Source: Candidatus Enterousia sp.
GTDB taxonomy: Bacteria > Pseudomonadota > Alphaproteobacteria > Rs-D84
NCBI GenBank assembly: GCA_045634865.1
Contig: JAZRBB010000008.1
Location: forward strand, 14,407 to 78,406
Reading direction: 5' to 3'
DNA: 64,000 nucleotides
This document shows, piece by piece, positions 30,435 to 52,286 of the stretch. The number at the start of each line of letters is the position of its first letter. Within the stretch, counting starts at the first letter, position 1. The translations under genes were made by a program, and so were the position numbers. The notes beneath the pieces were generated by a model. That model did no database searches. It was not told the origin of the DNA and worked only from the letters and a program-made list of their open reading frames with translations.

Positions 30435-30504
30435 AAGATATGCCAATTATATATGTCTTTAATAATTTTTCAATAATAAAATAAAAAAATTTTTAATCAT
30501 GCTC

Positions 30505-30553
30505 TTGACTTTAAGATATGAAATACATATAATCATTAAAAATTTTAATGATT
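30505..30553 (+). promoter_or_regulatory. Promoter of the marR-RND operon with overlapping palindromic operator
   Basis: TTGACT-17-TATAAT (30505-30533); perfect inverted repeat AATCATTAAAA-A-TTTTAATGATT (30531-30553). Confidence 0.75.
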
Positions 30554-30585
30554 TAGTTTCTGAACAATTAACCAAGGGGGTATCT

Positions 30586-31032
30586 ATGACACATACCGAA
30601 GTGACACAATTGATGGCTGAAAATATGCGTATTATGGGGCGGTTGGCCAATCGTTTACAGCCTTTGTTCGAAGGCTCCAAACAATCGCGTCAGCAAATGA
30701 CAGTTTTGGTTCGTCTGTATTTATCCGGCAAAATCAAACTGAAAGATTTTTCTGCGCGTGAGGTTATTTCTACGGCTAACCTTTGTAGTGTTTTTCGCAA
30801 GTTGGAACAAGATAAATTGGTTGTTCGTTCAACTGACCCAGATGATCATCGTGATACTTGGTATGAAGTTACTAAATCAGGTAAGGTTTTAGCAGAAAAA
30901 ATTATTGATAAATTTATGACTGCGTTGGAATCTCTGTGCAAATGTTTGCCCGAATCTGAACAAGATAGATTGGCAGAAACCAGCAGGACTATAAATGAAA
31001 TATTGAAAAAGATGGAGCAAGCAAATGCGTAA
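30586..31032 (+). CDS. MarR-family transcriptional regulator
   Basis: wHTH with LEQDKLVVRSTDPDDHRDTWYEVTKSG; ATG 30586 has an AAGGGG RBS. Confidence 0.88.
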   Translation: MTHTEVTQLMAENMRIMGRLANRLQPLFEGSKQSRQQMTVLVRLYLSGKIKLKDFSAREVISTANLCSVFRKLEQDKLVVRSTDPDDHRDTWYEVTKSGKVLAEKIIDKFMTALESLCKCLPESEQDRLAETSRTINEILKKMEQANA

Positions 31033-32332
31033 ATTATTATTGTGTGTATTGTCGTGTGTGGCGGTAATCCCAAATGCGTTCGGTATGGATTTGTCGTTAA
31101 ATCAGGCGATTGAAAAAATCGTATCTGAATCTAATGATATTAAACGCGCAGATGCGAATATCAAGAAAGCAAAAGCACAATTAAGTGCTGTAAACGCAAA
31201 CCGTTGGATGTCGATTGATGGCACTGTGTCATATATGAATTTGATAAATGTGAAACGCCCAACCAGTTCGAATGGTGTTGAAATACCGTCTGATATTGGC
31301 GCGATTCTGGGTAGCGTTTTGCCACTTGATGCTATACCGGATAATATTTTTTCAGCAGGTGTGCAAATAACCCAACCTATTTATACTTTTGGTAAAATTG
31401 GAAATGCGGTTGATGCTGTGCATGATGCAATTGATATGTCTAAATCAGCCAAAGATTTAACCATGCGTGAAGTTAAGTATGCGGCGGCTAATTTATATTG
31501 GACTGCAAAAATGACAGATGAAATTGTGTCTGCGTCACAAAGAAATCTGAACAACGCACGTGCTGCGAAAAAGAAACTGACATCGGCAGGACGTGCAAAT
31601 CGCAGCAATTTAATTAAAATAGAATCTGATATTGCGTCCAAAGCAATCAATTTATCTGACGCTGAATTTAATCGTGATACAGCATACAGAATGCTGAAAA
31701 TTATGGCGGGAATTGATGTTGATGAAGATTTAATTTTGGTTGATAATTTTCCAGATAAATTTGCACCACTAAATGCAGGTAAATTAAAATCAAATCCAGA
31801 ATGGGATATTTATCAAAAACAAATTAAAATGTATGAATCGAATGCGTCGTCTAAACGTTCAGGGGCTTATCCAACATTGGCAGCAGTTGGTTCGTATTCT
31901 TTTTATTCTATGGGGCCTGATATGGGACATATGTTTGATAAAGAAGGTTCGCAGTCTGCATATTGGGGCTTGGCTTTGCAGGTTCCGTTGTTTAACGGTG
32001 GAATCCATTCTGCAAATGCAACAATGGAAGCGATGAATGCGGAATCTGCCCGTCAAGATTTGGATAAATCAAAGAAACTGAAAACCGAAGAATATGATAA
32101 CGCAGTAAGTAAGTATAAACATTTATGTAATAATTTGGGTAAGTTGAAAAAAGCGCACTCGCTGGCCCAGCAAGCATATGATGTGTCTGCAAAACGTTTT
32201 GCGACCGGTCAAACCTCTGCTGTTGAATTGGCTGATGTTTCTGGGGCTTTATATCAAATGGATATGGCTTTGTTAAATGCGAAATACAATATTTTAATGT
32301 CTGCAGAATCGGTTAAGAAATTAGGTGAATAA
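31025..32332 (+). CDS. tolC: TolC-family outer membrane channel
   Basis: Signal peptide, LSLNQAI, ITQPIYTFG, LQVPLFNGG, RFATGQTSAVEL. Confidence 0.85.
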   Translation: MRKLLLCVLSCVAVIPNAFGMDLSLNQAIEKIVSESNDIKRADANIKKAKAQLSAVNANRWMSIDGTVSYMNLINVKRPTSSNGVEIPSDIGAILGSVLPLDAIPDNIFSAGVQITQPIYTFGKIGNAVDAVHDAIDMSKSAKDLTMREVKYAAANLYWTAKMTDEIVSASQRNLNNARAAKKKLTSAGRANRSNLIKIESDIASKAINLSDAEFNRDTAYRMLKIMAGIDVDEDLILVDNFPDKFAPLNAGKLKSNPEWDIYQKQIKMYESNASSKRSGAYPTLAAVGSYSFYSMGPDMGHMFDKEGSQSAYWGLALQVPLFNGGIHSANATMEAMNAESARQDLDKSKKLKTEEYDNAVSKYKHLCNNLGKLKKAHSLAQQAYDVSAKRFATGQTSAVELADVSGALYQMDMALLNAKYNILMSAESVKKLGE

Positions 32333-32333
32333 A

Positions 32334-32948
32334 ATGACAACTGAAAAAATAGAAAATTTTGTAAAAAAATTGAAAACAAAAAAATCAAAAAATATCATTT
32401 ATATATTTTTGATGGTTGTGTTGATTGGTTGTTTTGCTTATCGCTTTTATAACGTGTTCACAGAAAGAAATCGCACAGTGTTTAATATCATGCGTAATAA
32501 TATTGAAAACGGAATACCGGTTGAAACATTGAAAATATCTGAAACAAATGGTGTGTTATATCAACCGTTAAACATAAAAAATAATCGCGCATATGTATCG
32601 GGGGCGCGTGTCAATATGTTCAAGGTTGGTCAAAAAATTGGTAATTGTAAAATCGTTTCTGTATCAAAAAATATAGATTTATATTCTGGTATGCATGTTA
32701 TAAAAACATCTGGTTGTCCAGACGGTTTGCAATATGTGGAACACAGGCAATATGGTTTCTATGTGCCGGTTTCTGCTGTATATGGCAATAATGTATATGT
32801 TGTAAATGGTGATAAATCAAGTGTTCGTGATATAGTCATAGAAGCGCGCGATTCACAAAATGTTTTGGTAAAATCTGGATTGAAAAATGGTGATATTGTG
32901 ATTTTATCAAAGGTTCAAGATAACGAAAAAATTAAAATTGTAAAGTAG
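32334..32948 (+). CDS. Miniature periplasmic adaptor (membrane-fusion-like) protein
   Basis: Position between tolC and RND; N-terminal TM; VPVSAV...VYVV and VKSGLKNGDIVI are typical MFP C-terminal motifs; only about 204 aa. Confidence 0.7.
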   Translation: MTTEKIENFVKKLKTKKSKNIIYIFLMVVLIGCFAYRFYNVFTERNRTVFNIMRNNIENGIPVETLKISETNGVLYQPLNIKNNRAYVSGARVNMFKVGQKIGNCKIVSVSKNIDLYSGMHVIKTSGCPDGLQYVEHRQYGFYVPVSAVYGNNVYVVNGDKSSVRDIVIEARDSQNVLVKSGLKNGDIVILSKVQDNEKIKIVK

Positions 32949-32967: not shown

Positions 32968-35900
32968 ATGTTAAAGTTCTTTATTCGCAGACCTGTCACA
33001 ACAATAATGTTCGTTTTGTTTTTTGTGGTTTTAGGGTTGGTTTCTTTTCCCAAAATGAACATAGAACGTTCGCCGTCTGTGGATTTTCCGTATGTGACGG
33101 TGACATTTGTATATCCGGGCGCTTCATCTTCTGAACTAGAAAGTCAGGTTGTTAAAAAAGCAGAAAATGCAATGTCAGAGGTTGCAGGTGTTAAAAAAAT
33201 TACAAGTCAGATTTATGAAAACAGCGCTTATGTTATATCTGAATTTAATTTGGGTGTAAATGTTGATGACAAGGCGAATGAGGTCAAAGCAAAAATTGAT
33301 GGATTGGCTAATGAATTTCCGTCAGATTTGAAACAACCAGTAATTGCAAAACTAAACCCATTACAGCAAGCGGTATTGGATATTGTTATCCAAGGTGCAG
33401 ACGCAAAAGATTTGGAAAAATATATAAAAGATAACCTGTCTAATAAAATAACAGCAGTTCGCGGTGTTGCATCTGTAAATACATTTGGTGGTTTGACGCG
33501 TGCTGTGCGTATCGCAATGGATCCAGATTTAATGGCTGCGCATGGTGTTACGATAAATGATATAGTATCTGCAATTGCAACACATAATTTGAATGTGCCA
33601 GGTGGAAAAATTGAAACAGATATCAATTCTGAAAATGTTCGTTTTGTTGGTGAATTCCAAAACGTCAAAGAAATATCAGATCTAGAGATAACAACTGTCG
33701 AAGGCGATACTTTCAAGTTGTCCGATGTTGCAAATGTTCGTGATGCCGCGCGTGATATTGAAAAAGGTGCCAGGTATAATGGCAAAGAGGTTGTTATAAT
33801 GTCTGTGGTCAAGGCTTCTGATGGTAATGCAATAAAAATATCAAACGCTTTGCGTAAAAAAATGCCGGAATTGCAAGCACAATTAGAAACCCGTTTCCAA
33901 AATGCAACGATGGAAATTGTTTCTGATTCATCTTTGACAATATCCCAAGCAACAACAGACACAATAAATAGTATTGTTTTGGGTGTTATATTTACAATCA
34001 TAGTATTGTTGGCATTTACGCGTAATTGGCGTTCTACGATTATTGCTGGTGTTGTGATTCCTGTATCATTATTATCAGGTTTCTTTCTTATGAACGGTAG
34101 CGGTTTTACAATAAACACCATGACTTTATTGGCGTATGCGACAGCGCTTGGCACATTAGTATCAAACGCGATTATTTTAATTGAATCTGCATTAAGTGAA
34201 TTGCAGGCTGGTAAAACACCAGAACAAGCCGCAGAAGAAGGGACGCGTAAGGTTGCAATTCCTGTGTTGGCTGGTGTTGGCACGAACGTAGTTGTGTTTT
34301 TACCCTTGGCATTTATGGGTGGTATTGTTGGACAATTTATGTTGCAGTTTGGTATGACTGTTGTTTATTTAACATTATTATCATTATTGTTTTCATTTAC
34401 TTTGACACCGATGATGATTGCGAAATTATTAAGATTTAATCAAAAGAACAAAAAAGATATTCAACAAGTACAAAAGCATAATAATTCTACGCGTTTGCAT
34501 TCGTGGTACGAATATCAATATAAACGTCCATGGATTGTTATTCTGGGGGCTGTTGGCATCTTGATTTTGTCTGCCAGGTTGATGGGTTATGTCGGAAATG
34601 AGTTTTCGCCATCTACAGACGCAAATGAAATAACAATTACAGCACGTGCGCCAATGGGCAGTTTATATGCAAAATCTGAGTCTATTGCAAAAATCATAGA
34701 AGAACGAGTATCGAACATTCCAGAGGTTAAATCTACAACGGTTAAGATAGGTGATAAAGGTTTGCAGAATATCAGTGTCAAAGTGACATTGGTTGATGTT
34801 GAAAAACGAAAAATATCTGATAAACAGTTGGCGCAACAAATATTACCAACATTGGCTGATATCCCCGATGCAGAAATCCAAATTCGTGCAGGAGAAAATA
34901 TGTCCAGCGCTGGTATAAGTTCTGATTTGGTATTAAATGTATTTGGTGATGATGATGATAAACGTAATATGTATGCAAATCAGATAATAGCAAACATTAA
35001 CAAAATAGAATCTGTGCAAAGTGTGGTTCTGGCACAACAAGCACCAGCAAAAGAAATTCGCTTTATACCAGACAATGAAAAAATGAATTTTTGGGGTGTG
35101 AAAAATGCAAATGCTGGGGTTGCTTTGCGTACAGCATTATTTGGGAACGATACACATAAATACAAAGAGCATGGTGATGAATATCCAATAGTTTTAGAGT
35201 TCGATAAACAATTCAAGAATAAATCGATGTTTGATAGTGTTTATGTCAGTTCTCAAAAAGGGATGGTTGCGTTATCACAATTGGGAACCTTGGAAAGCGC
35301 GCCTGCATCATCTAATATTTATCGTTTGGATAAAAACAGAATAACAGAAATAGATATAAATATTGGTAAATCTACGATTGGTCCTGTGCAGGCCGAAATC
35401 CAGAAATATTTGGATACTATAAATTGGGAACCAGGATACAGCGCGTCTTTTGCAGGTATGTCCGAAATTCAATCTGAAAGCACAGGTGAAATCGCTCAGG
35501 CATTTTTGTTGGCTACGATTTTAACATTTATGTTATTGGCTGCAATTATGAATTCGTTTATACATCCGTTCACTATTGCGACATCTATTATAACCAGTTT
35601 TGCGGGTGTGTTTATTGTGCTGTTTTTATCTGGTGCATCAATGAATGTCGGTGCGATGTTGGCGTTTATTATGTTGGTTGGTTTGGTTGTGAATAACAAT
35701 ATTTTGGTTTTGGAACCAACAGTTGCACGTGTGCAAAGGGGTGAAAACGCATATAAAGTTTTATGGCAAGAATTGATGGATAAAAAGCGTATGATTTGGA
35801 TGACTACTATTGCTGTCGTTGCGGGTATGTTGCCACAATTATGGTCAAATGATGGATTGAAAGTCGCGATGGGTGCGGTTATGATTGGCGGTATGTGTGC

Positions 35901-35985
35901 GTCTTTGATATGGACGTTCTGTCTGACACCCGCATTGTTCTTTGTAATGGAAAAGTTGCGTGTAAAATTGAGTCGCAAGAAATAA
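32968..35985 (+). CDS. RND-family (AcrB-like) transporter with non-canonical TM4/TM10
   Basis: FIRRPV, PSVDFP, YPGASS, 12-TM RND layout with two periplasmic loops; TM4 VSNAI and TM10 VNNNI. Confidence 0.92.
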   Translation: MLKFFIRRPVTTIMFVLFFVVLGLVSFPKMNIERSPSVDFPYVTVTFVYPGASSSELESQVVKKAENAMSEVAGVKKITSQIYENSAYVISEFNLGVNVDDKANEVKAKIDGLANEFPSDLKQPVIAKLNPLQQAVLDIVIQGADAKDLEKYIKDNLSNKITAVRGVASVNTFGGLTRAVRIAMDPDLMAAHGVTINDIVSAIATHNLNVPGGKIETDINSENVRFVGEFQNVKEISDLEITTVEGDTFKLSDVANVRDAARDIEKGARYNGKEVVIMSVVKASDGNAIKISNALRKKMPELQAQLETRFQNATMEIVSDSSLTISQATTDTINSIVLGVIFTIIVLLAFTRNWRSTIIAGVVIPVSLLSGFFLMNGSGFTINTMTLLAYATALGTLVSNAIILIESALSELQAGKTPEQAAEEGTRKVAIPVLAGVGTNVVVFLPLAFMGGIVGQFMLQFGMTVVYLTLLSLLFSFTLTPMMIAKLLRFNQKNKKDIQQVQKHNNSTRLHSWYEYQYKRPWIVILGAVGILILSARLMGYVGNEFSPSTDANEITITARAPMGSLYAKSESIAKIIEERVSNIPEVKSTTVKIGDKGLQNISVKVTLVDVEKRKISDKQLAQQILPTLADIPDAEIQIRAGENMSSAGISSDLVLNVFGDDDDKRNMYANQIIANINKIESVQSVVLAQQAPAKEIRFIPDNEKMNFWGVKNANAGVALRTALFGNDTHKYKEHGDEYPIVLEFDKQFKNKSMFDSVYVSSQKGMVALSQLGTLESAPASSNIYRLDKNRITEIDINIGKSTIGPVQAEIQKYLDTINWEPGYSASFAGMSEIQSESTGEIAQAFLLATILTFMLLAAIMNSFIHPFTIATSIITSFAGVFIVLFLSGASMNVGAMLAFIMLVGLVVNNNILVLEPTVARVQRGENAYKVLWQELMDKKRMIWMTTIAVVAGMLPQLWSNDGLKVAMGAVMIGGMCASLIWTFCLTPALFFVMEKLRVKLSRKK

Positions 35986-36048
35986 AATTGACTCAGCATC
36001 AGTTTCGTGATATTCTGCTGGCATACCAAAAGCCAAGGAATAAGACAC

Positions 36049-36648
36049 ATGTTAAAGAAAGTAAGTGTAGTAGTTTTTGATTTTGACGGAACATTATCTG
36101 CTGGCGATTCAAACATTGATTTTGAATGCTATTGTTTCAGACATTCGGTCAAGCCATGGTTTTATATTCCGTCTATGCTAGTTGCATTAGTTGTGAAGTT
36201 TTTCAATCCAGATGGCATTTGGTGGCGACAAAAAATGCATAGATTTTTAACACAAAAAATGGTTCGTGATTTTACGCCAGCATTTATCAAAGAGCACAAA
36301 CAAAAACGTTTTGGTTGGGCCAAGGAGCAGGTCGCTAAAGAAAGCGCCGCTGGTAATAAAGTTGTTTTAATTTCAGCCAGTCCTGATTATTTGGTTCCAA
36401 AGTTGGTTTCTGATATTAAATTTGATGCAGTGTTAACTTCTGAAACCCAGCAAGATAAACCATGGAAATATGATTTTGTATGCTATGGTAAAAACAAAGT
36501 CGTTGCATTGGACGATTGGGCGAAAAAAAATAATTTTATACCAAATGTTGTGCGTTCTTATTCGGACAGTCGCTCTGATATACCGATTATGAATATCGCA
36601 AAAGAACAAATTTGGATAAACCGCAAAACAGGTCTGCGTAAAAACTAA
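36049..36648 (+). CDS. HAD-superfamily (IB) phosphatase
   Basis: FDFDGTL, ISASP, YGKNKV, YSDSRSDIP. Confidence 0.85.
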   Translation: MLKKVSVVVFDFDGTLSAGDSNIDFECYCFRHSVKPWFYIPSMLVALVVKFFNPDGIWWRQKMHRFLTQKMVRDFTPAFIKEHKQKRFGWAKEQVAKESAAGNKVVLISASPDYLVPKLVSDIKFDAVLTSETQQDKPWKYDFVCYGKNKVVALDDWAKKNNFIPNVVRSYSDSRSDIPIMNIAKEQIWINRKTGLRKN

Positions 36649-50582: not shown

Positions 50583-52286
50583 ATGCCATTATCCACAGTT
50601 ATATTTCTTGCAATCGCATTTGGTGCAGTATTTTTTATGCGTTTATTCAAAATGGGAACATTGTTAGCGTTCTTGTTGACCGGTATTTTAGCAGGCCAGC
50701 ATGTGTTTGGATTATTTGAATTGTCTGGGACATGGACTTTTCTGGGTGATTTAGGAATTATGTTTTTGTGGTTTAATATTGGATTACAAATCAATATGAA
50801 ACGTCTGTGGCAATTACGCAGAACTATTTTTGGACTTGGTGCATCTCAGGTTTTAATGGTTGCTATTATGTTATTTCCTGTATTGGTTGGAATAACATCT
50901 TGGACTTTGATTGGAACAATAATGGTTGCCTTGATTCTTGCAATGTCCAGTACATCAGAAGATTTGCAAATTTTGGTCGAAAAAAATCAATTGCAGACAA
51001 ATATGGGACGTCAGACATTTTCAATTTTGCTGTTCCAAGATTTGTTATCAATTCCTTTGTTGGCAATGTTGCCGGTAATGACAGGTAAATCAATAAATCT
51101 GGGTGCAACAGCAATCGATGTTTTGGTTATGTCTTTAGGGTTAATACTGGGGGTTATAATTGTTTCTAAATTTATTATCAACCCACTAATGCATATCGTA
51201 TCTAAAATAAAATCCCAAGAGGCTTTTGTCTTGGCGATAATGGTGAATATTGTGGTTTGGGCATTGGTTCTGCAAAAACTTGGTATGCCACCTGCGCTTG
51301 GTGCTTTCTTGGCTGGTATGTTGATGTCCGAAACAGTGTACAGGCACCAGGTAAACGCTTCCATAGAACCATACGCAACATTATTTTTGGCTTTCTTTTT
51401 CATAGTGCTTGGTATGGGATTAGATATTCCTTTTTTAAGAGGACATTATGCTACTATTTTAATAGCGGTTGGCGGATTGGTATTGATAAAGTTTTTTGCA
51501 TTATATATCGTTGCGCGTGTTCGACATGTATCTGCCAAAGATGCAACCTTGATGTCTTTGATATTGGCTCAGGGCGGTGAATTTGGCTTGTTGATTTTGC
51601 AGACAATGAAAACAAACGGAATAAAAGCAATCCCAGCCGAGCATCAGGAAATTTTAATTGCCGTCATTGTTGTTTCTATAATGATAACACCGATATTGTT
51701 GTTCGTTTATGATTGGCTATTACGGCATGGCAAGATATTTAAGGGACCAGTAGACAAAAATTTATCAGAATCAATGATACAAGAGGCGCCAGTTGTTATA
51801 ATATCTGGGTTTGGTCGTATGGGACAAATAATCGCGCAAATGCTCGAAATTGCAAAAATACCATATGTCGCTATTGATTCAAATGTTGATGAAGTTATTA
51901 TGGCGCGTGAATCAGGTTATAACGTGATATATGGCGATTCAAGAAGAAAGGGGATTTTAGAAGCCGCTGGATTCAAACCAAGCAAAACACGTGCAGTTGT
52001 GGTTGCGGTAAATAATGAATCTATTGTTCGTGATATCGTAGAAACATGGCGTTCTATATCGCCACGCATAAAAATATTTGCACGTGCGCATAATCTGAAA
52101 TCTGCAAACGATTTGATAAAAATGGGTGTGAAATCTGCGATGCCTGAAATCATTGAATCTTCATTTCTTTTGGGTGATAAACTTATGTCTGGTTTGGGTT
52201 TGTCGCGCATAAAGATAAACTCTTTAGTCGAAGATTTGCGTGCAAATAATTATGCAAATGTTAAACAGCCAATCGACACAAAATAG
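50583..52286 (+). CDS. kefC: CPA2 cation/proton antiporter with KTN domain (KefB/KefC-like)
   Basis: LLFQDL, LGAFLAG, LAQGGEFG, GFGRMGQ. Confidence 0.85.
   Translation: MPLSTVIFLAIAFGAVFFMRLFKMGTLLAFLLTGILAGQHVFGLFELSGTWTFLGDLGIMFLWFNIGLQINMKRLWQLRRTIFGLGASQVLMVAIMLFPVLVGITSWTLIGTIMVALILAMSSTSEDLQILVEKNQLQTNMGRQTFSILLFQDLLSIPLLAMLPVMTGKSINLGATAIDVLVMSLGLILGVIIVSKFIINPLMHIVSKIKSQEAFVLAIMVNIVVWALVLQKLGMPPALGAFLAGMLMSETVYRHQVNASIEPYATLFLAFFFIVLGMGLDIPFLRGHYATILIAVGGLVLIKFFALYIVARVRHVSAKDATLMSLILAQGGEFGLLILQTMKTNGIKAIPAEHQEILIAVIVVSIMITPILLFVYDWLLRHGKIFKGPVDKNLSESMIQEAPVVIISGFGRMGQIIAQMLEIAKIPYVAIDSNVDEVIMARESGYNVIYGDSRRKGILEAAGFKPSKTRAVVVAVNNESIVRDIVETWRSISPRIKIFARAHNLKSANDLIKMGVKSAMPEIIESSFLLGDKLMSGLGLSRIKINSLVEDLRANNYANVKQPIDTK

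What the first reader, a model, noticed from the sequence alone, without database searches (positions are those of the whole stretch)
32968..35985. RND transporter that has lost the proton-relay triad
Seen: TM4 reads G-T-L-V-S-N-A-I (S399/N400, nt 34162-34167) where AcrB has G-L-L-V-D407-D408-A-I. TM10 reads G-L-V-V-N-N-N-I (N909, nt 35692) where AcrB has K940. The R971 and T978 equivalents are kept (KKRMIWMTT), and the gene is full-length within an intact MarR-controlled operon. Knowledge: D407/D408/K940 are required for proton-coupled transport in AcrB/MexB. Inference: an uncoupled or differently energised RND, acting as a passive conduit, sensor or export scaffold, possibly suited to a low-PMF fermentative lifestyle.
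Basis: partly seen in the sequence, partly recalled or inferred. Interest (0 to 1): 0.65.

Follow-up and report, generated by a model that had tools for sequence, protein, structure and literature searches.

The report
RND efflux pump with uncharged core
This intact, strongly conserved efflux-pump gene of a tiny-genome gut bacterium really lacks every charged membrane residue that textbook pumps of its type use to harvest proton energy. The lack is the hallmark of a large, apparently undescribed branch of the family found in many phyla, so how these pumps are powered is an open, testable question.

Summary
The 1005-aa ORF at 32968-35985 is a full-length AcrB-type RND permease. S399/N400 sit at AcrB D407/D408 and N909 sits at K940, at the stated nucleotides. 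One correction: the R971 equivalent is Lys (K939), not Arg.

No compensating Asp/Glu/Lys/Arg/His lies in any transmembrane core. Only the helix-end residues shared with all RND pumps remain (E406, E916, K939, R941).

The "loss" is not specific to this organism. About 40 of the 150 nearest 50%-identity cluster representatives show the same pattern and form one supported clade spanning many phyla. In that clade N400, N909, N910, N440 and S472 are nearly invariant, and relatives sit in OMF-adaptor-RND operons.

In Candidatus Enterousia (order Rs-D84) the gene is present and uninterrupted in all 93 sampled genomes of the family. It is the only RND in this genome (dN/dS about 0.09), so it works alone and is not decaying.

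The genome lacks ATP synthase, Rnf/Nqr and H+-PPase. It keeps TolQR, TatC, SecF and a Ca2+/Na+ antiporter, so ion gradients are in use.

Best reading: a functional pump with a non-carboxylate coupling site, most likely Na+. This is untested. The "low-PMF adaptation" idea is not supported.

The parts
30499..31032 (+). MarR-family regulator, first gene of the string; its end overlaps the OMF gene by 8 nt
   Evidence: Pfam MarR PF01047, E 8.7e-10. ORF layout.
31025..32332 (+). TolC-like outer-membrane factor, 435 aa
   Evidence: Pfam OEP, E 3.6e-39, two stretches. NCBIfam TolC family at 94 bits, below its cut-off. Found upstream of the RND in all 29 genus loci at 63-88% identity.
32325..32948 (+). 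Short, hairpin-less periplasmic adaptor (MFP), 207 aa. It has an N-terminal TM helix and an all-beta periplasmic part.
   Evidence: No Pfam hit; weak NCBIfam RND_mfp match to the C-terminus only. AF2 pLDDT 88.5. Foldseek hits to CusB, MexA, AcrA, BesA and MacA at E about 1e-5 over 135-165 columns. Conserved in the genus and in a Bacteriovoracaceae relative.
32968..35985 (+). RND permease, 1005 aa, AcrB fold, with an uncharged transmembrane core
   Evidence: Pfam ACR_tran 638.7 bits over residues 1-994. AF2 pLDDT 86.8 and pTM 0.80. Foldseek TM-score 0.91-0.92 to MdtB, CmeB, AcrD and AcrB.
34162..34167 (+). Codons for S399 and N400 on TM4, at the positions of AcrB D407 and D408
   Evidence: N400 is 43/43 in the clade, while position 399 is free (T/N/A/S/V/M).
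35692..35700 (+). Codons for N909, N910 and N911 on TM10, at the positions of AcrB K940, N941 and A942
   Evidence: In the clade N909 is 43/43 and N910 is 40/43.
34285..34287 (+). N440 on TM5 (AcrB L449), a polar residue specific to the clade
   Evidence: N in 42/43 clade members, against I/L/D in canonical pumps.
34381..34383 (+). S472 on TM6 (AcrB S481, the hydrogen-bond partner of D408)
   Evidence: S in 42/43 clade members. The S481-D408 bond is described in PMC4359379.
33994..33996 (+). T343 on TM2 (AcrB V351), a clade-specific Thr
   Evidence: T in 40/43 clade members, against Ala in 51/70 canonical pumps.
35524..35526 (+). T853 on TM8 (AcrB V884), a clade-specific Thr at about the same offset into TM8 as T343 has into TM2
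   Evidence: T in 38/43 clade members, against I/V in canonical pumps.
34183..34185 (+). E406 at the cytoplasmic end of TM4 (AcrB E414), one of the few charged residues left
   Evidence: E in 42/43 clade members, but equally conserved in canonical pumps.
35713..35715 (+). E916 at the cytoplasmic end of TM10 (AcrB E947)
   Evidence: AcrB E947 lies at the cytoplasmic rim and E947Q is active (PMC13139501).
35782..35784 (+). K939 at the start of TM11 (AcrB R971 equivalent, here Lys)
   Evidence: The clade has R 23 and K 18, against 100% R in the DDK and DxN classes.
35803..35805 (+). T946 on TM11 (AcrB T978 equivalent)
   Evidence: The position is relaxed in the clade (T 19, A 12, S 9), against 100% T in the other classes.
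36007..36648 (+). HAD-IB hydrolase gene 21 nt downstream; membership of the operon is possible but not established
   Evidence: Pfam HAD, E 8.8e-20. Found within 1.5 kb downstream in 21 of 29 genus loci.

Best explanation
Shown:
- The gene encodes the inner-membrane permease of a conserved tripartite RND efflux system (regulator, TolC-like channel, mini-adaptor, permease).
- It belongs to a large multi-phylum clade of AcrB-like permeases whose transmembrane core carries no titratable residue.
- In that clade TM4 reads x-N where AcrB has D407-D408, and TM10 reads N-N where AcrB has K940-N941.
- The clade adds its own polar residues on TM5 (N440), TM2 (T343) and TM8 (T853).
- The state is ancestral to the clade. 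It was not lost in this bacterium.
- In Candidatus Enterousia it is a core gene under strong purifying selection and the only RND permease in the genome. It must therefore work as a homotrimer, without a canonical partner subunit.

Inferred:
- The near-invariant Asn/Ser/Thr cluster at the AcrB ion site is the coupling site.
- Because it cannot be protonated, the pump is most likely driven by a cation that oxygen ligands can bind without a carboxylate, namely Na+.
- Binding and release of that cation would engage and disengage the two TM repeats, as (de)protonation does in AcrB.
- Proton coupling through the rim residues E406, E916 and K939 is the main alternative.
- The substrate is unknown.
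For: Identity and fold.

Residue mapping.

No charged residue in any TM core of this protein or of the clade.

The clade:
- 43 of the 150 nearest representatives are xNN.
- The 40 full-length ones with N at the K940 position fall in one branch of 43 rows with SH-aLRT 99.
- Members occur in Bacteriovoracaceae, Elusimicrobia, Gemmatimonadota, KSB1, Ignavibacteria, Cloacimonadota, Spirochaeta/Treponema, Synergistaceae, Lentisphaeria/Victivallales, Planctomycetota and Nitrospiraceae.
- N400 is 43/43, N909 43/43, N910 40/43, N440 42/43, S472 42/43, T343 40/43 and T853 38/43.
- The D407 position is free, and T978 and R971 are relaxed.

Pump context:
- Relatives lie in OEP-HlyD-RND operons.
- OMF-adaptor-RND synteny holds in 29/29 genus loci.

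Function in this lineage:
- 118/121 genomes of the order have an RND hit.
- All 93 genomes of the family have a full-length, uninterrupted copy at 52-100% identity.
- There is one full-length RND per genome in nearly all of them.
- dN/dS is about 0.09.

Ion gradients exist in this cell: TolQ-TolR-TolA with the TolR Asp, TatC, SecF with its Asp, a Ca2+/Na+ antiporter scoring above its curated cut-off, and a CPA2 antiporter.

Background:
- A field review states that all RND transporters keep at least one central acidic residue (PMC8277102).
- Uncharged Na+ sites built from Asn/Ser/Thr and backbone oxygens are well established in LeuT-fold transporters (my own knowledge).
- RND-superfamily members can use Na+: DISP1 (preprint 10.1101/2020.09.05.284026) and one bacterial RND pump mentioned in PMC8277102.
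Against: - No experiment and no solved structure exists for any member of the clade. Every PDB relative is a DDK pump.
- I had no model coordinates, so I could not show that the conserved polar residues form one site. By helix arithmetic N440 probably lies about two turns above N400.
- The one RND-superfamily Na+ site I found described (DISP1) is in a protein that keeps its TM4/TM10 acidic residues; that these coordinate the Na+ is from my own knowledge.
- No primary Na+ or H+ pump was found in this genome, so the source of any gradient is unknown.
- The clade also occurs in lineages not noted for Na+ energetics.
- E406 and E916 could still titrate.
- The tree is midpoint-rooted, so 'ancestral to the clade' is supported but the direction of change relative to DDK pumps is not.
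Confidence: 0.45

Rival explanations
1. The pump is still proton-driven, but the protonation site has moved. The conserved carboxylates at the cytoplasmic ends of TM4 and TM10 (E406, E916), paired with K939 on TM11, would take up and release the proton. The Asn/Ser/Thr ladder would only hold the water wire that brings the proton from the periplasm.
For: E406 is 42/43, D/E916 is 42/43 and K/R939 is 41/43 in the clade. These are the only titratable residues near the TM4-TM10-TM11 interface. In AcrB, R971 contacts E414 and N415, and water channels reach this region (PMC4359379). The genome keeps PMF-dependent machines.
Against: The same three residues are just as conserved in DDK and DxN pumps, so they are not a compensation specific to the clade. 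In AcrB, E947 sits at the cytoplasmic rim and E947Q is fully active (PMC13139501). A rim site open to the cytoplasm is poorly placed for alternating access. Position 939 alternates between Arg and Lys, which argues for a fixed charge and not a titrating group.
Confidence: 0.25
2. The permease is not ion-coupled. It would be a passive conduit or scaffold that holds the adaptor and outer-membrane channel, or a lipid or amphiphile facilitator driven by concentration gradients or by another protein.
For: No titratable residue lies in the TM core. No primary ion pump was found in the genome. The organism lacks lipid synthesis and probably depends on other cells (PMC12306168), so lipid handling by its only RND is conceivable.
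Against: Near-invariant Asn and Ser residues sit at exactly the ion-site positions, and the clade has gained buried polar residues. A passive anchor would be expected to drift to hydrophobic residues. The whole 1005-aa architecture is kept, with dN/dS about 0.09. Across phyla the clade stays in classical OMF-MFP-RND operons.
Confidence: 0.15
3. It is a non-energised 'passenger' protomer that works only in a heterotrimer with a canonical, charge-bearing RND paralogue, in the manner of MdtB2C.
For: An earlier scan note (e1-2707291) reports one-normal-one-altered RND pairs in a planctomycete. The best PDB hit here is MdtB, a subunit of a heterotrimeric pump.
Against: tblastn and the ACR_tran profile find only this one RND permease in the 93%-complete genome. 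Nearly all genomes of the family likewise have a single full-length copy. The operon holds one permease gene.
Confidence: 0.03
4. The pattern is an alignment artefact, or the gene is decaying.
For: The genome is strongly reduced.
Against: Three independent alignments agree, anchored on invariant G395 and G905. There are no stop codons in the 93 family genomes. dN/dS is about 0.09. The AF2 model is confident and has the full AcrB fold.
Confidence: 0.01

Closest known systems
E. coli AcrB / P. aeruginosa MexB (HAE-1 RND multidrug permeases)
   Same: Full-length ACR_tran architecture with 12 TM helices and porter and docking domains. Predicted structure superposes at TM-score about 0.92. Encoded next to an adaptor and a TolC-like channel. 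E414, E947, S481, N941 and T978 equivalents are kept.
   Different: About 20% identity. D407, D408 and K940 are S, N and N. R971 is Lys. Extra buried polar residues N440, T343 and T853. Adaptor of only 207 aa without a hairpin.
E. coli MdtB (MdtABC; PDB 9LYQ), the best sequence and structure hit
   Same: phmmer E 2e-104 over residues 3-998. Foldseek rank 1.
   Different: MdtB has the DD/K relay and works in a heterotrimer with MdtC. This protein has neither the relay nor a paralogue.
'DxN' RND pumps (one-aspartate relay); Bacillus, Paenibacillus, Clostridia, Porphyromonas and Alistipes loci found here belong to this class, and B. subtilis SwrC and S. aureus FemT probably do (not checked here)
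   Same: N at the K940 position and N or S at the D408 position. TM10 reads G-I-V-V-N-N. Widespread outside Proteobacteria.
   Different: DxN pumps keep D407 together with strictly conserved T978 and R971. Here even D407 is gone and T978 and R971 are relaxed in the clade. In the tree the DxN rows group with DDK pumps, not with this clade.
Borrelia burgdorferi BesA (PDB 4KKS, 4KKT, 4KKU), a hairpin-less adaptor
   Same: The adaptor here also lacks the alpha-helical hairpin. BesA is among the Foldseek hits.
   Different: BesA has about 265-275 residues in the solved chains. The adaptor here has about 150 periplasmic residues behind a TM anchor.
Na+-using members of the RND superfamily (animal DISP1; one bacterial RND pump reported as Na+-dependent, V. 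cholerae VexF by my recollection)
   Same: They show that the RND transmembrane module can be driven by Na+ instead of H+.
   Different: DISP1 keeps its TM4/TM10 acidic residues, which by my recollection coordinate the Na+. This clade has no acidic residue in the core.

Membership tests
RND superfamily, AcrB/AcrD/AcrF family (Pfam PF00873) | End-to-end match to the ACR_tran profile above the gathering score | tested here: met
   638.7 bits against a cut-off of 28; residues 1-994 match profile positions 1-1020 of 1021.
RND superfamily, AcrB/AcrD/AcrF family (Pfam PF00873) | AcrB fold: 12 TM helices in two repeats plus two large periplasmic loops forming porter and docking domains | tested here: met
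   AF2 pLDDT 86.8 and pTM 0.80. Foldseek TM-score 0.91-0.92 to MdtB, CmeB, AcrD and AcrB over about 1040 columns.
Tripartite HAE-1-type efflux system | Permease encoded with a periplasmic adaptor and an outer-membrane factor | tested here: met
   OEP gene and adaptor gene lie directly upstream, with 8-nt overlaps and a 19-nt gap. Synteny holds in 29/29 genus loci.
Canonical proton-driven HAE-1 pumps (AcrB/MexB type) | TM4 Asp-Asp (D407/D408) and TM10 Lys (K940) proton-relay triad | tested here: not met
   S399, N400 and N909 occupy these positions. No other acidic or basic residue lies in any TM core.
Canonical proton-driven HAE-1 pumps (AcrB/MexB type) | TM11 Arg (R971) and Thr (T978) supporting the relay | tested here: inconclusive
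   K939 (Lys for Arg) and T946 are present in this protein. In the clade these positions are relaxed: R 23 / K 18 and T 19 / A 12 / S 9, against 100% in DDK pumps.
Canonical proton-driven HAE-1 pumps (AcrB/MexB type) | Transport dependent on the proton-motive force (CCCP-sensitive) | not testable with these tools
   Needs a transport assay.
NCBIfam NF033617 'multidrug efflux RND transporter permease subunit' (RND_permease_2) | Score above the curated cut-off of 1250 bits | tested here: not met
   597.8 bits; this is the best NCBIfam hit, and all 14 hits fall below their cut-offs.
Uncharged-core ('xNN') RND clade, defined here | Non-acidic residue plus Asn on TM4, Asn-Asn on TM10, N440, S472, T343 and T853; placement inside the clade on the tree | tested here: met
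   All signature residues are present. P0001 falls inside the 43-row clade with SH-aLRT 99.
MdtBC-type heterotrimeric RND (passenger subunit) | A second, relay-bearing RND permease gene in the operon or genome | tested here: not met
   A single hit by tblastn and by the ACR_tran profile in the own genome.
Na+-coupled RND transporters | Na+-dependent transport or Na+ bound in the TM core | not testable with these tools
   Only indirect support: oxygen-rich uncharged ligands at the ion site and a Ca2+/Na+ antiporter in the genome.

The most novel reading that the evidence does not exclude
The uncharged-core clade would be a distinct energetic class of tripartite RND pumps. They would bind their coupling ion, most likely Na+, in a carboxylate-free Asn/Ser/Thr site where AcrB has its Asp-Asp-Lys triad. 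That would contradict the rule that every RND transporter needs a central acidic residue. In Candidatus Enterousia such a pump is the sole RND, in a cell with no recognisable primary H+ or Na+ pump, so the way this cell builds and spends ion gradients would also be non-standard.
Probability: 0.3. Interest if true: 0.8.

Novelty: new variant of a known kind. Interest (0 to 1): 0.6.

Why it matters
RND pumps are the main efflux machines of Gram-negative bacteria. Their mechanism, their inhibitors (for example the pyridylpiperazines that dock on D408) and their annotation all assume the Asp-Asp-Lys proton relay.

A large, conserved, multi-phylum clade without any titratable core residue means one of two things. 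Either a second coupling chemistry exists in this fold, or ion coupling is dispensable for some tripartite pumps. A handful of transport assays and one structure could decide between these.

It also bears on the physiology of reduced-genome gut bacteria. These keep this pump as a core gene while having lost ATP synthase and respiration.

Tried and rejected
- **Compensating charges.** I scanned all 12 TM segments of the protein and of the 43-member clade for D/E/K/R/H. Only helix-end residues shared with canonical pumps turned up.
- **Passenger subunit of a heterotrimer.** Rejected: there is a single RND in the genome and in the family.
- **Pseudogene or alignment artefact.** Rejected.
- **Adaptation to a cell without PMF.** Rejected as the cause. 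The trait is clade-wide, and the cell keeps TolQR, TatC and SecF.
- **Measuring distances between the conserved polar residues.** Not possible, because model coordinates are not exposed.
- **Literature.** Nine full-text searches found no description of RND pumps lacking all relay charges. This library misses most subscription journals, so prior description cannot be excluded.
- **Promoter and terminator scan of the operon.** It gave no more sites than shuffled sequence.
- **ADP/ATP translocase search (PF03219).** Uninformative, because no control genome gave a hit.
Full report
**1. The observation**

The window carries an uninterrupted 1005-codon ORF at 32968-35985 on the + strand.
- GTLVSNAI is at residues 395-402, with S399 at 34162-34164 and N400 at 34165-34167.
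- GLVVNNNI is at residues 905-912, with N909 at 35692-35694.
- KKRMIWMTT is at residues 939-947.

The protein matches Pfam ACR_tran end to end (638.7 bits, residues 1-994 on profile positions 1-1020). Its best solved relatives are MdtB (E 2e-104), CmeB, AdeB and AcrB.

The phmmer alignments to MdtB and CmeB put S399-N400 opposite their Asp-Asp and N909 opposite their Lys.

I fetched E. coli K-12 acrB and confirmed its numbering: D407, D408, K940, R971, T978. I then added it to a MAFFT alignment of 151 sequences. The mapping is:
- D407 -> S399
- D408 -> N400
- K940 -> N909
- N941 -> N910
- A942 -> N911
- E414 -> E406
- E947 -> E916
- R971 -> K939
- R973 -> R941
- T978 -> T946

The observation therefore stands, with one correction. 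The R971 equivalent is a lysine. The arginine in 'KKR' is the R973 equivalent, which varies even within the genus (S, Y, N, R, D, A or T).

**2. No compensation**

I mapped the twelve AcrB TM segments onto the protein and listed every D, E, K, R or H, both here and in a 43-sequence alignment of its clade.

The only charged residues are at helix ends: R8, D331, R355, E406, R427/K428, K519/R520, E841, H866, E916, D938-K939-K940-R941 and D962/K965. Nothing charged lies in a core.

E406, E916 and K939 are the equivalents of AcrB E414, E947 and R971. They are just as conserved in canonical pumps, so they are not a compensation specific to this protein. AcrB's periplasmic relay residues E346 and D924 are L338 and N893 here, but those positions vary in canonical pumps too.

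**3. It is a clade trait, not a local loss**

A search of 1.84 billion cluster representatives returned 150 nearest relatives at 28-60% identity. Read at the three positions, 43 have no acidic residue on TM4 and Asn at the K940 position. I call these 'xNN', where x is T, N, A, S, V, M or I. Another 22 keep D407 only ('DxN'), and 70 are canonical 'DDK'.

In a maximum-likelihood tree of the 140 full-length sequences, the xNN rows form one branch of 43 rows with SH-aLRT 99. This protein lies inside it. The DxN rows group with the DDK pumps. The tree is a quick search and is midpoint-rooted.

Among the best 80, about 23 are xNN. They come from Bacteriovoracaceae, Elusimicrobia, Gemmatimonadota, KSB1, Ignavibacteriaceae, Cloacimonadota, Spirochaeta/Treponema, Synergistaceae/Thermovirgaceae, Lentisphaeria/Victivallales, Sedimentisphaerales/Pirellulales and Nitrospiraceae. 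DxN is found in Bacillus, Paenibacillus, Clostridia, Porphyromonas, Alistipes and many others.

Seven xNN relatives from other phyla have two upstream ORFs of matching sizes. In the five checked with Pfam, an OEP gene was found in four and a normal 340-370-aa HlyD-type adaptor in four.

**4. What is conserved instead**

I compared the xNN, DDK and DxN sets column by column.

Nearly invariant in xNN:
- N400 is 43/43.
- N909 is 43/43.
- N910 is 40/43.
- S472 is 42/43. It is the equivalent of AcrB S481, the hydrogen-bond partner of D408 (PMC4359379).

Gained by the clade, polar residues absent from canonical pumps:
- N440 on TM5 is 42/43; AcrB has L449.
- T343 on TM2 is 40/43; AcrB has V351.
- T853 on TM8 is 38/43; AcrB has V884.

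T343 and T853 lie at about the same offset into TM2 and TM8, so I read them as a pseudo-symmetric pair. N400 and N910 look likewise paired on TM4 and TM10. Both pairings are my inference.

By contrast the D407 position is free. T978 is relaxed (T 19, A 12, S 9), and R971 alternates between R and K (23/18). Both positions are 100% conserved in DDK and DxN pumps.

So the AcrB ion site has been replaced by a conserved, uncharged, oxygen-rich polar cluster, and the residues that served D407 have lost their constraint.

**5. The gene in its own lineage**

Earlier scan notes identify the genome as Candidatus Enterousia, order Rs-D84. This agrees with 'Alphaproteobacteria bacterium' MAG labels on close homologues.

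Conservation:
- All 120 closest database proteins (81-100% identity) keep GTLV(S/T)NAI and GLVVNNNIL.
- Across 121 genomes of the order, 118 have an RND hit.
- All 93 genomes of the family carry a full-length copy without stops, at 52-100% identity.
- The genus is invariant S-N / N-N-N.

Variation elsewhere:
- Other genera of the family read I-N, F-N and S-N.
- One genus, like the nearest representative P0122, reads T-D / S-T.
- Other families of the order carry different RND types: D-G/N-N-N, D-D/N-S and D-D/K.

Copy number: tblastn and the ACR_tran profile find only this one RND permease in the genome, and one full-length copy per genome in nearly all of the family.

Selection and synteny:
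- dN/dS against five orthologues is about 0.09, with dS at 1.2-1.4, near saturation.
- OMF-adaptor-RND synteny holds in 29 of 29 genus loci.
- The HAD gene follows in 21 of those 29 loci.

The protein is therefore functional, works without a canonical partner subunit, and is a core gene of a 0.7-1.1 Mb genome.

**6. Structure**

The AlphaFold2 model, built on the clade alignment, has pLDDT 86.8 and pTM 0.80. It superposes on MdtB, CmeB, AcrD and AcrB at TM-score 0.91-0.92. Every solved relative is a DDK pump.

**7. The partners**

- MarR regulator at 30499-31032.
- TolC-like OMF at 31025-32332.
- A 207-aa protein at 32325-32948, followed by the RND.

The genes overlap by 8 nt or are 19 nt apart.

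The 207-aa protein has no Pfam hit. Its model (pLDDT 88.5) shows an N-terminal TM helix and an all-beta periplasmic part. This part matches the beta-barrel and membrane-proximal portions of CusB, MexA, AcrA, MacA and the hairpin-less BesA at E about 1e-5.

It is conserved in the genus. The Bacteriovoracaceae relative has a 223-aa counterpart (23% identity, E 4e-6), which lies behind a TetR-family regulator gene and an OEP gene. The mini-adaptor is thus a feature of this sub-branch, not of the whole clade.

**8. Energetics of the host**

Absent from the 93%-complete assembly:
- an ATP-synthase c subunit;
- any ATP-synt_ab protein other than Rho;
- RnfD/NqrB;
- a membrane pyrophosphatase.

This agrees with published analyses of Enterousia, which report no respiration and ATP synthase and PPase in only some Rs-D84 genomes (PMC12306168).

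Present:
- tolQ-tolR-tolA, with the TolR aspartate;
- TatC;
- SecF, with its TM aspartate (GYSINDKVV);
- a Ca2+/Na+ antiporter above its curated cut-off;
- a KefB/C-like CPA2 antiporter;
- two MFS proteins and an AI-2E transporter; MurJ is identified by eye from its sequence only.

Ion gradients are therefore in use, though their source is unknown. The other RND-superfamily member of this same genome, SecF, has kept its carboxylate.

**9. Mechanism**

Inferred: that cluster is the coupling site. The ion is most likely Na+, because carboxylate-free Na+ sites built from Asn, Ser, Thr and backbone oxygens are well known in other transporter folds (my own knowledge). The RND module can also use Na+ (DISP1; one bacterial pump, per PMC8277102).

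My odds:
- Na+ or another metal cation: about 40%.
- H+ through E406/E916/K939 or a water wire: about 25%.
- No ion coupling: about 15-20%.
- Something else: the remainder.

Two points count against the rim-carboxylate rival. AcrB E947Q is active and E947 lies at the cytoplasmic rim (PMC13139501). Position 939 alternates between Arg and Lys.

Two points count against the passive rival: the conservation pattern described in section 4, and dN/dS.

**10. Novelty**

[quoted passage not shown] Nine full-text searches found no description of this clade, but subscription journals are largely missing from the library.

Other agents of this scan have met the same clade in other genomes (e1-3305502, e1-5062124). 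They have also met the DxN class (e1-4864006, e1-4905818). I re-derived both points independently here.

This window adds a natural experiment. The uncharged-core pump is the only RND in a minimal genome, which rules out the passenger-subunit idea (e1-2707291) for this lineage.

**11. Verdict**

- Observation: confirmed.
- Interpretation: partly supported.
- Classification: a new variant of a known kind.
- Interest: 0.6.

Noticed in passing
window 32325-32948 (+): The periplasmic adaptor is only 207 aa: a TM anchor plus an all-beta part, with no alpha-hairpin and no Pfam hit. It is conserved in the genus and has a 223-aa counterpart in a Bacteriovoracaceae MAG (L003 5333-6004). How so short an adaptor bridges the permease to a TolC-like channel is unclear.
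   Followed up: partly
whole genome G000 (window = C8:14407-78406): No ATP-synthase c subunit, no F/V-type alpha or beta subunit (the only ATP-synt_ab hit is Rho), no RnfD/NqrB and no H+-PPase. Yet tolQRA, tatC, secF, a Ca2+/Na+ antiporter and a CPA2 antiporter are present. The source of the membrane ion gradient in this cell is unexplained.
   Followed up: partly
window 50583-52286 (+): A KefB/KefC-like CPA2 cation:proton antiporter with a TrkA-N domain (Pfam Na_H_Exchanger, E 2e-45). It is one of very few secondary transporters in the genome.
   Followed up: no
L115 (G026:C14:12100-15300) and protein P0122: In one sister genus and in a 'Rickettsiales bacterium' MAG, the orthologue reads T-D on TM4 and S-T on TM10. 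An Asp is back at the D408 position while the Asn pair on TM10 is gone. This may be a natural reversion or a switch of coupling chemistry inside the clade.
   Followed up: no
L123-L128, L133 (other families of order Rs-D84): Other Rs-D84 families carry different RND types, at about 25% identity to this one. Their relay variants are D-G / N-N-N and D-D / N-S, besides canonical D-D / K. Relay diversity within one order of tiny genomes is high.
   Followed up: no
window 35788-35790 (R941): The AcrB R973 equivalent is not conserved within the genus (S, Y, N, R, D, A or T), whereas the R971 equivalent K939 is kept as K or R.
   Followed up: yes
window 30505-30533 (+): The best sigma-70-like match of the region (11/12) lies just inside the annotated start of the MarR ORF, so the true MarR start may be further downstream. 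The scan as a whole found no more sites than shuffled sequence.
   Followed up: no
window 36007-36648 (+): A HAD-IB hydrolase gene lies 21 nt after the RND and is found within 1.5 kb downstream in 21 of 29 genus loci. Any functional link to the pump is unknown.
   Followed up: partly
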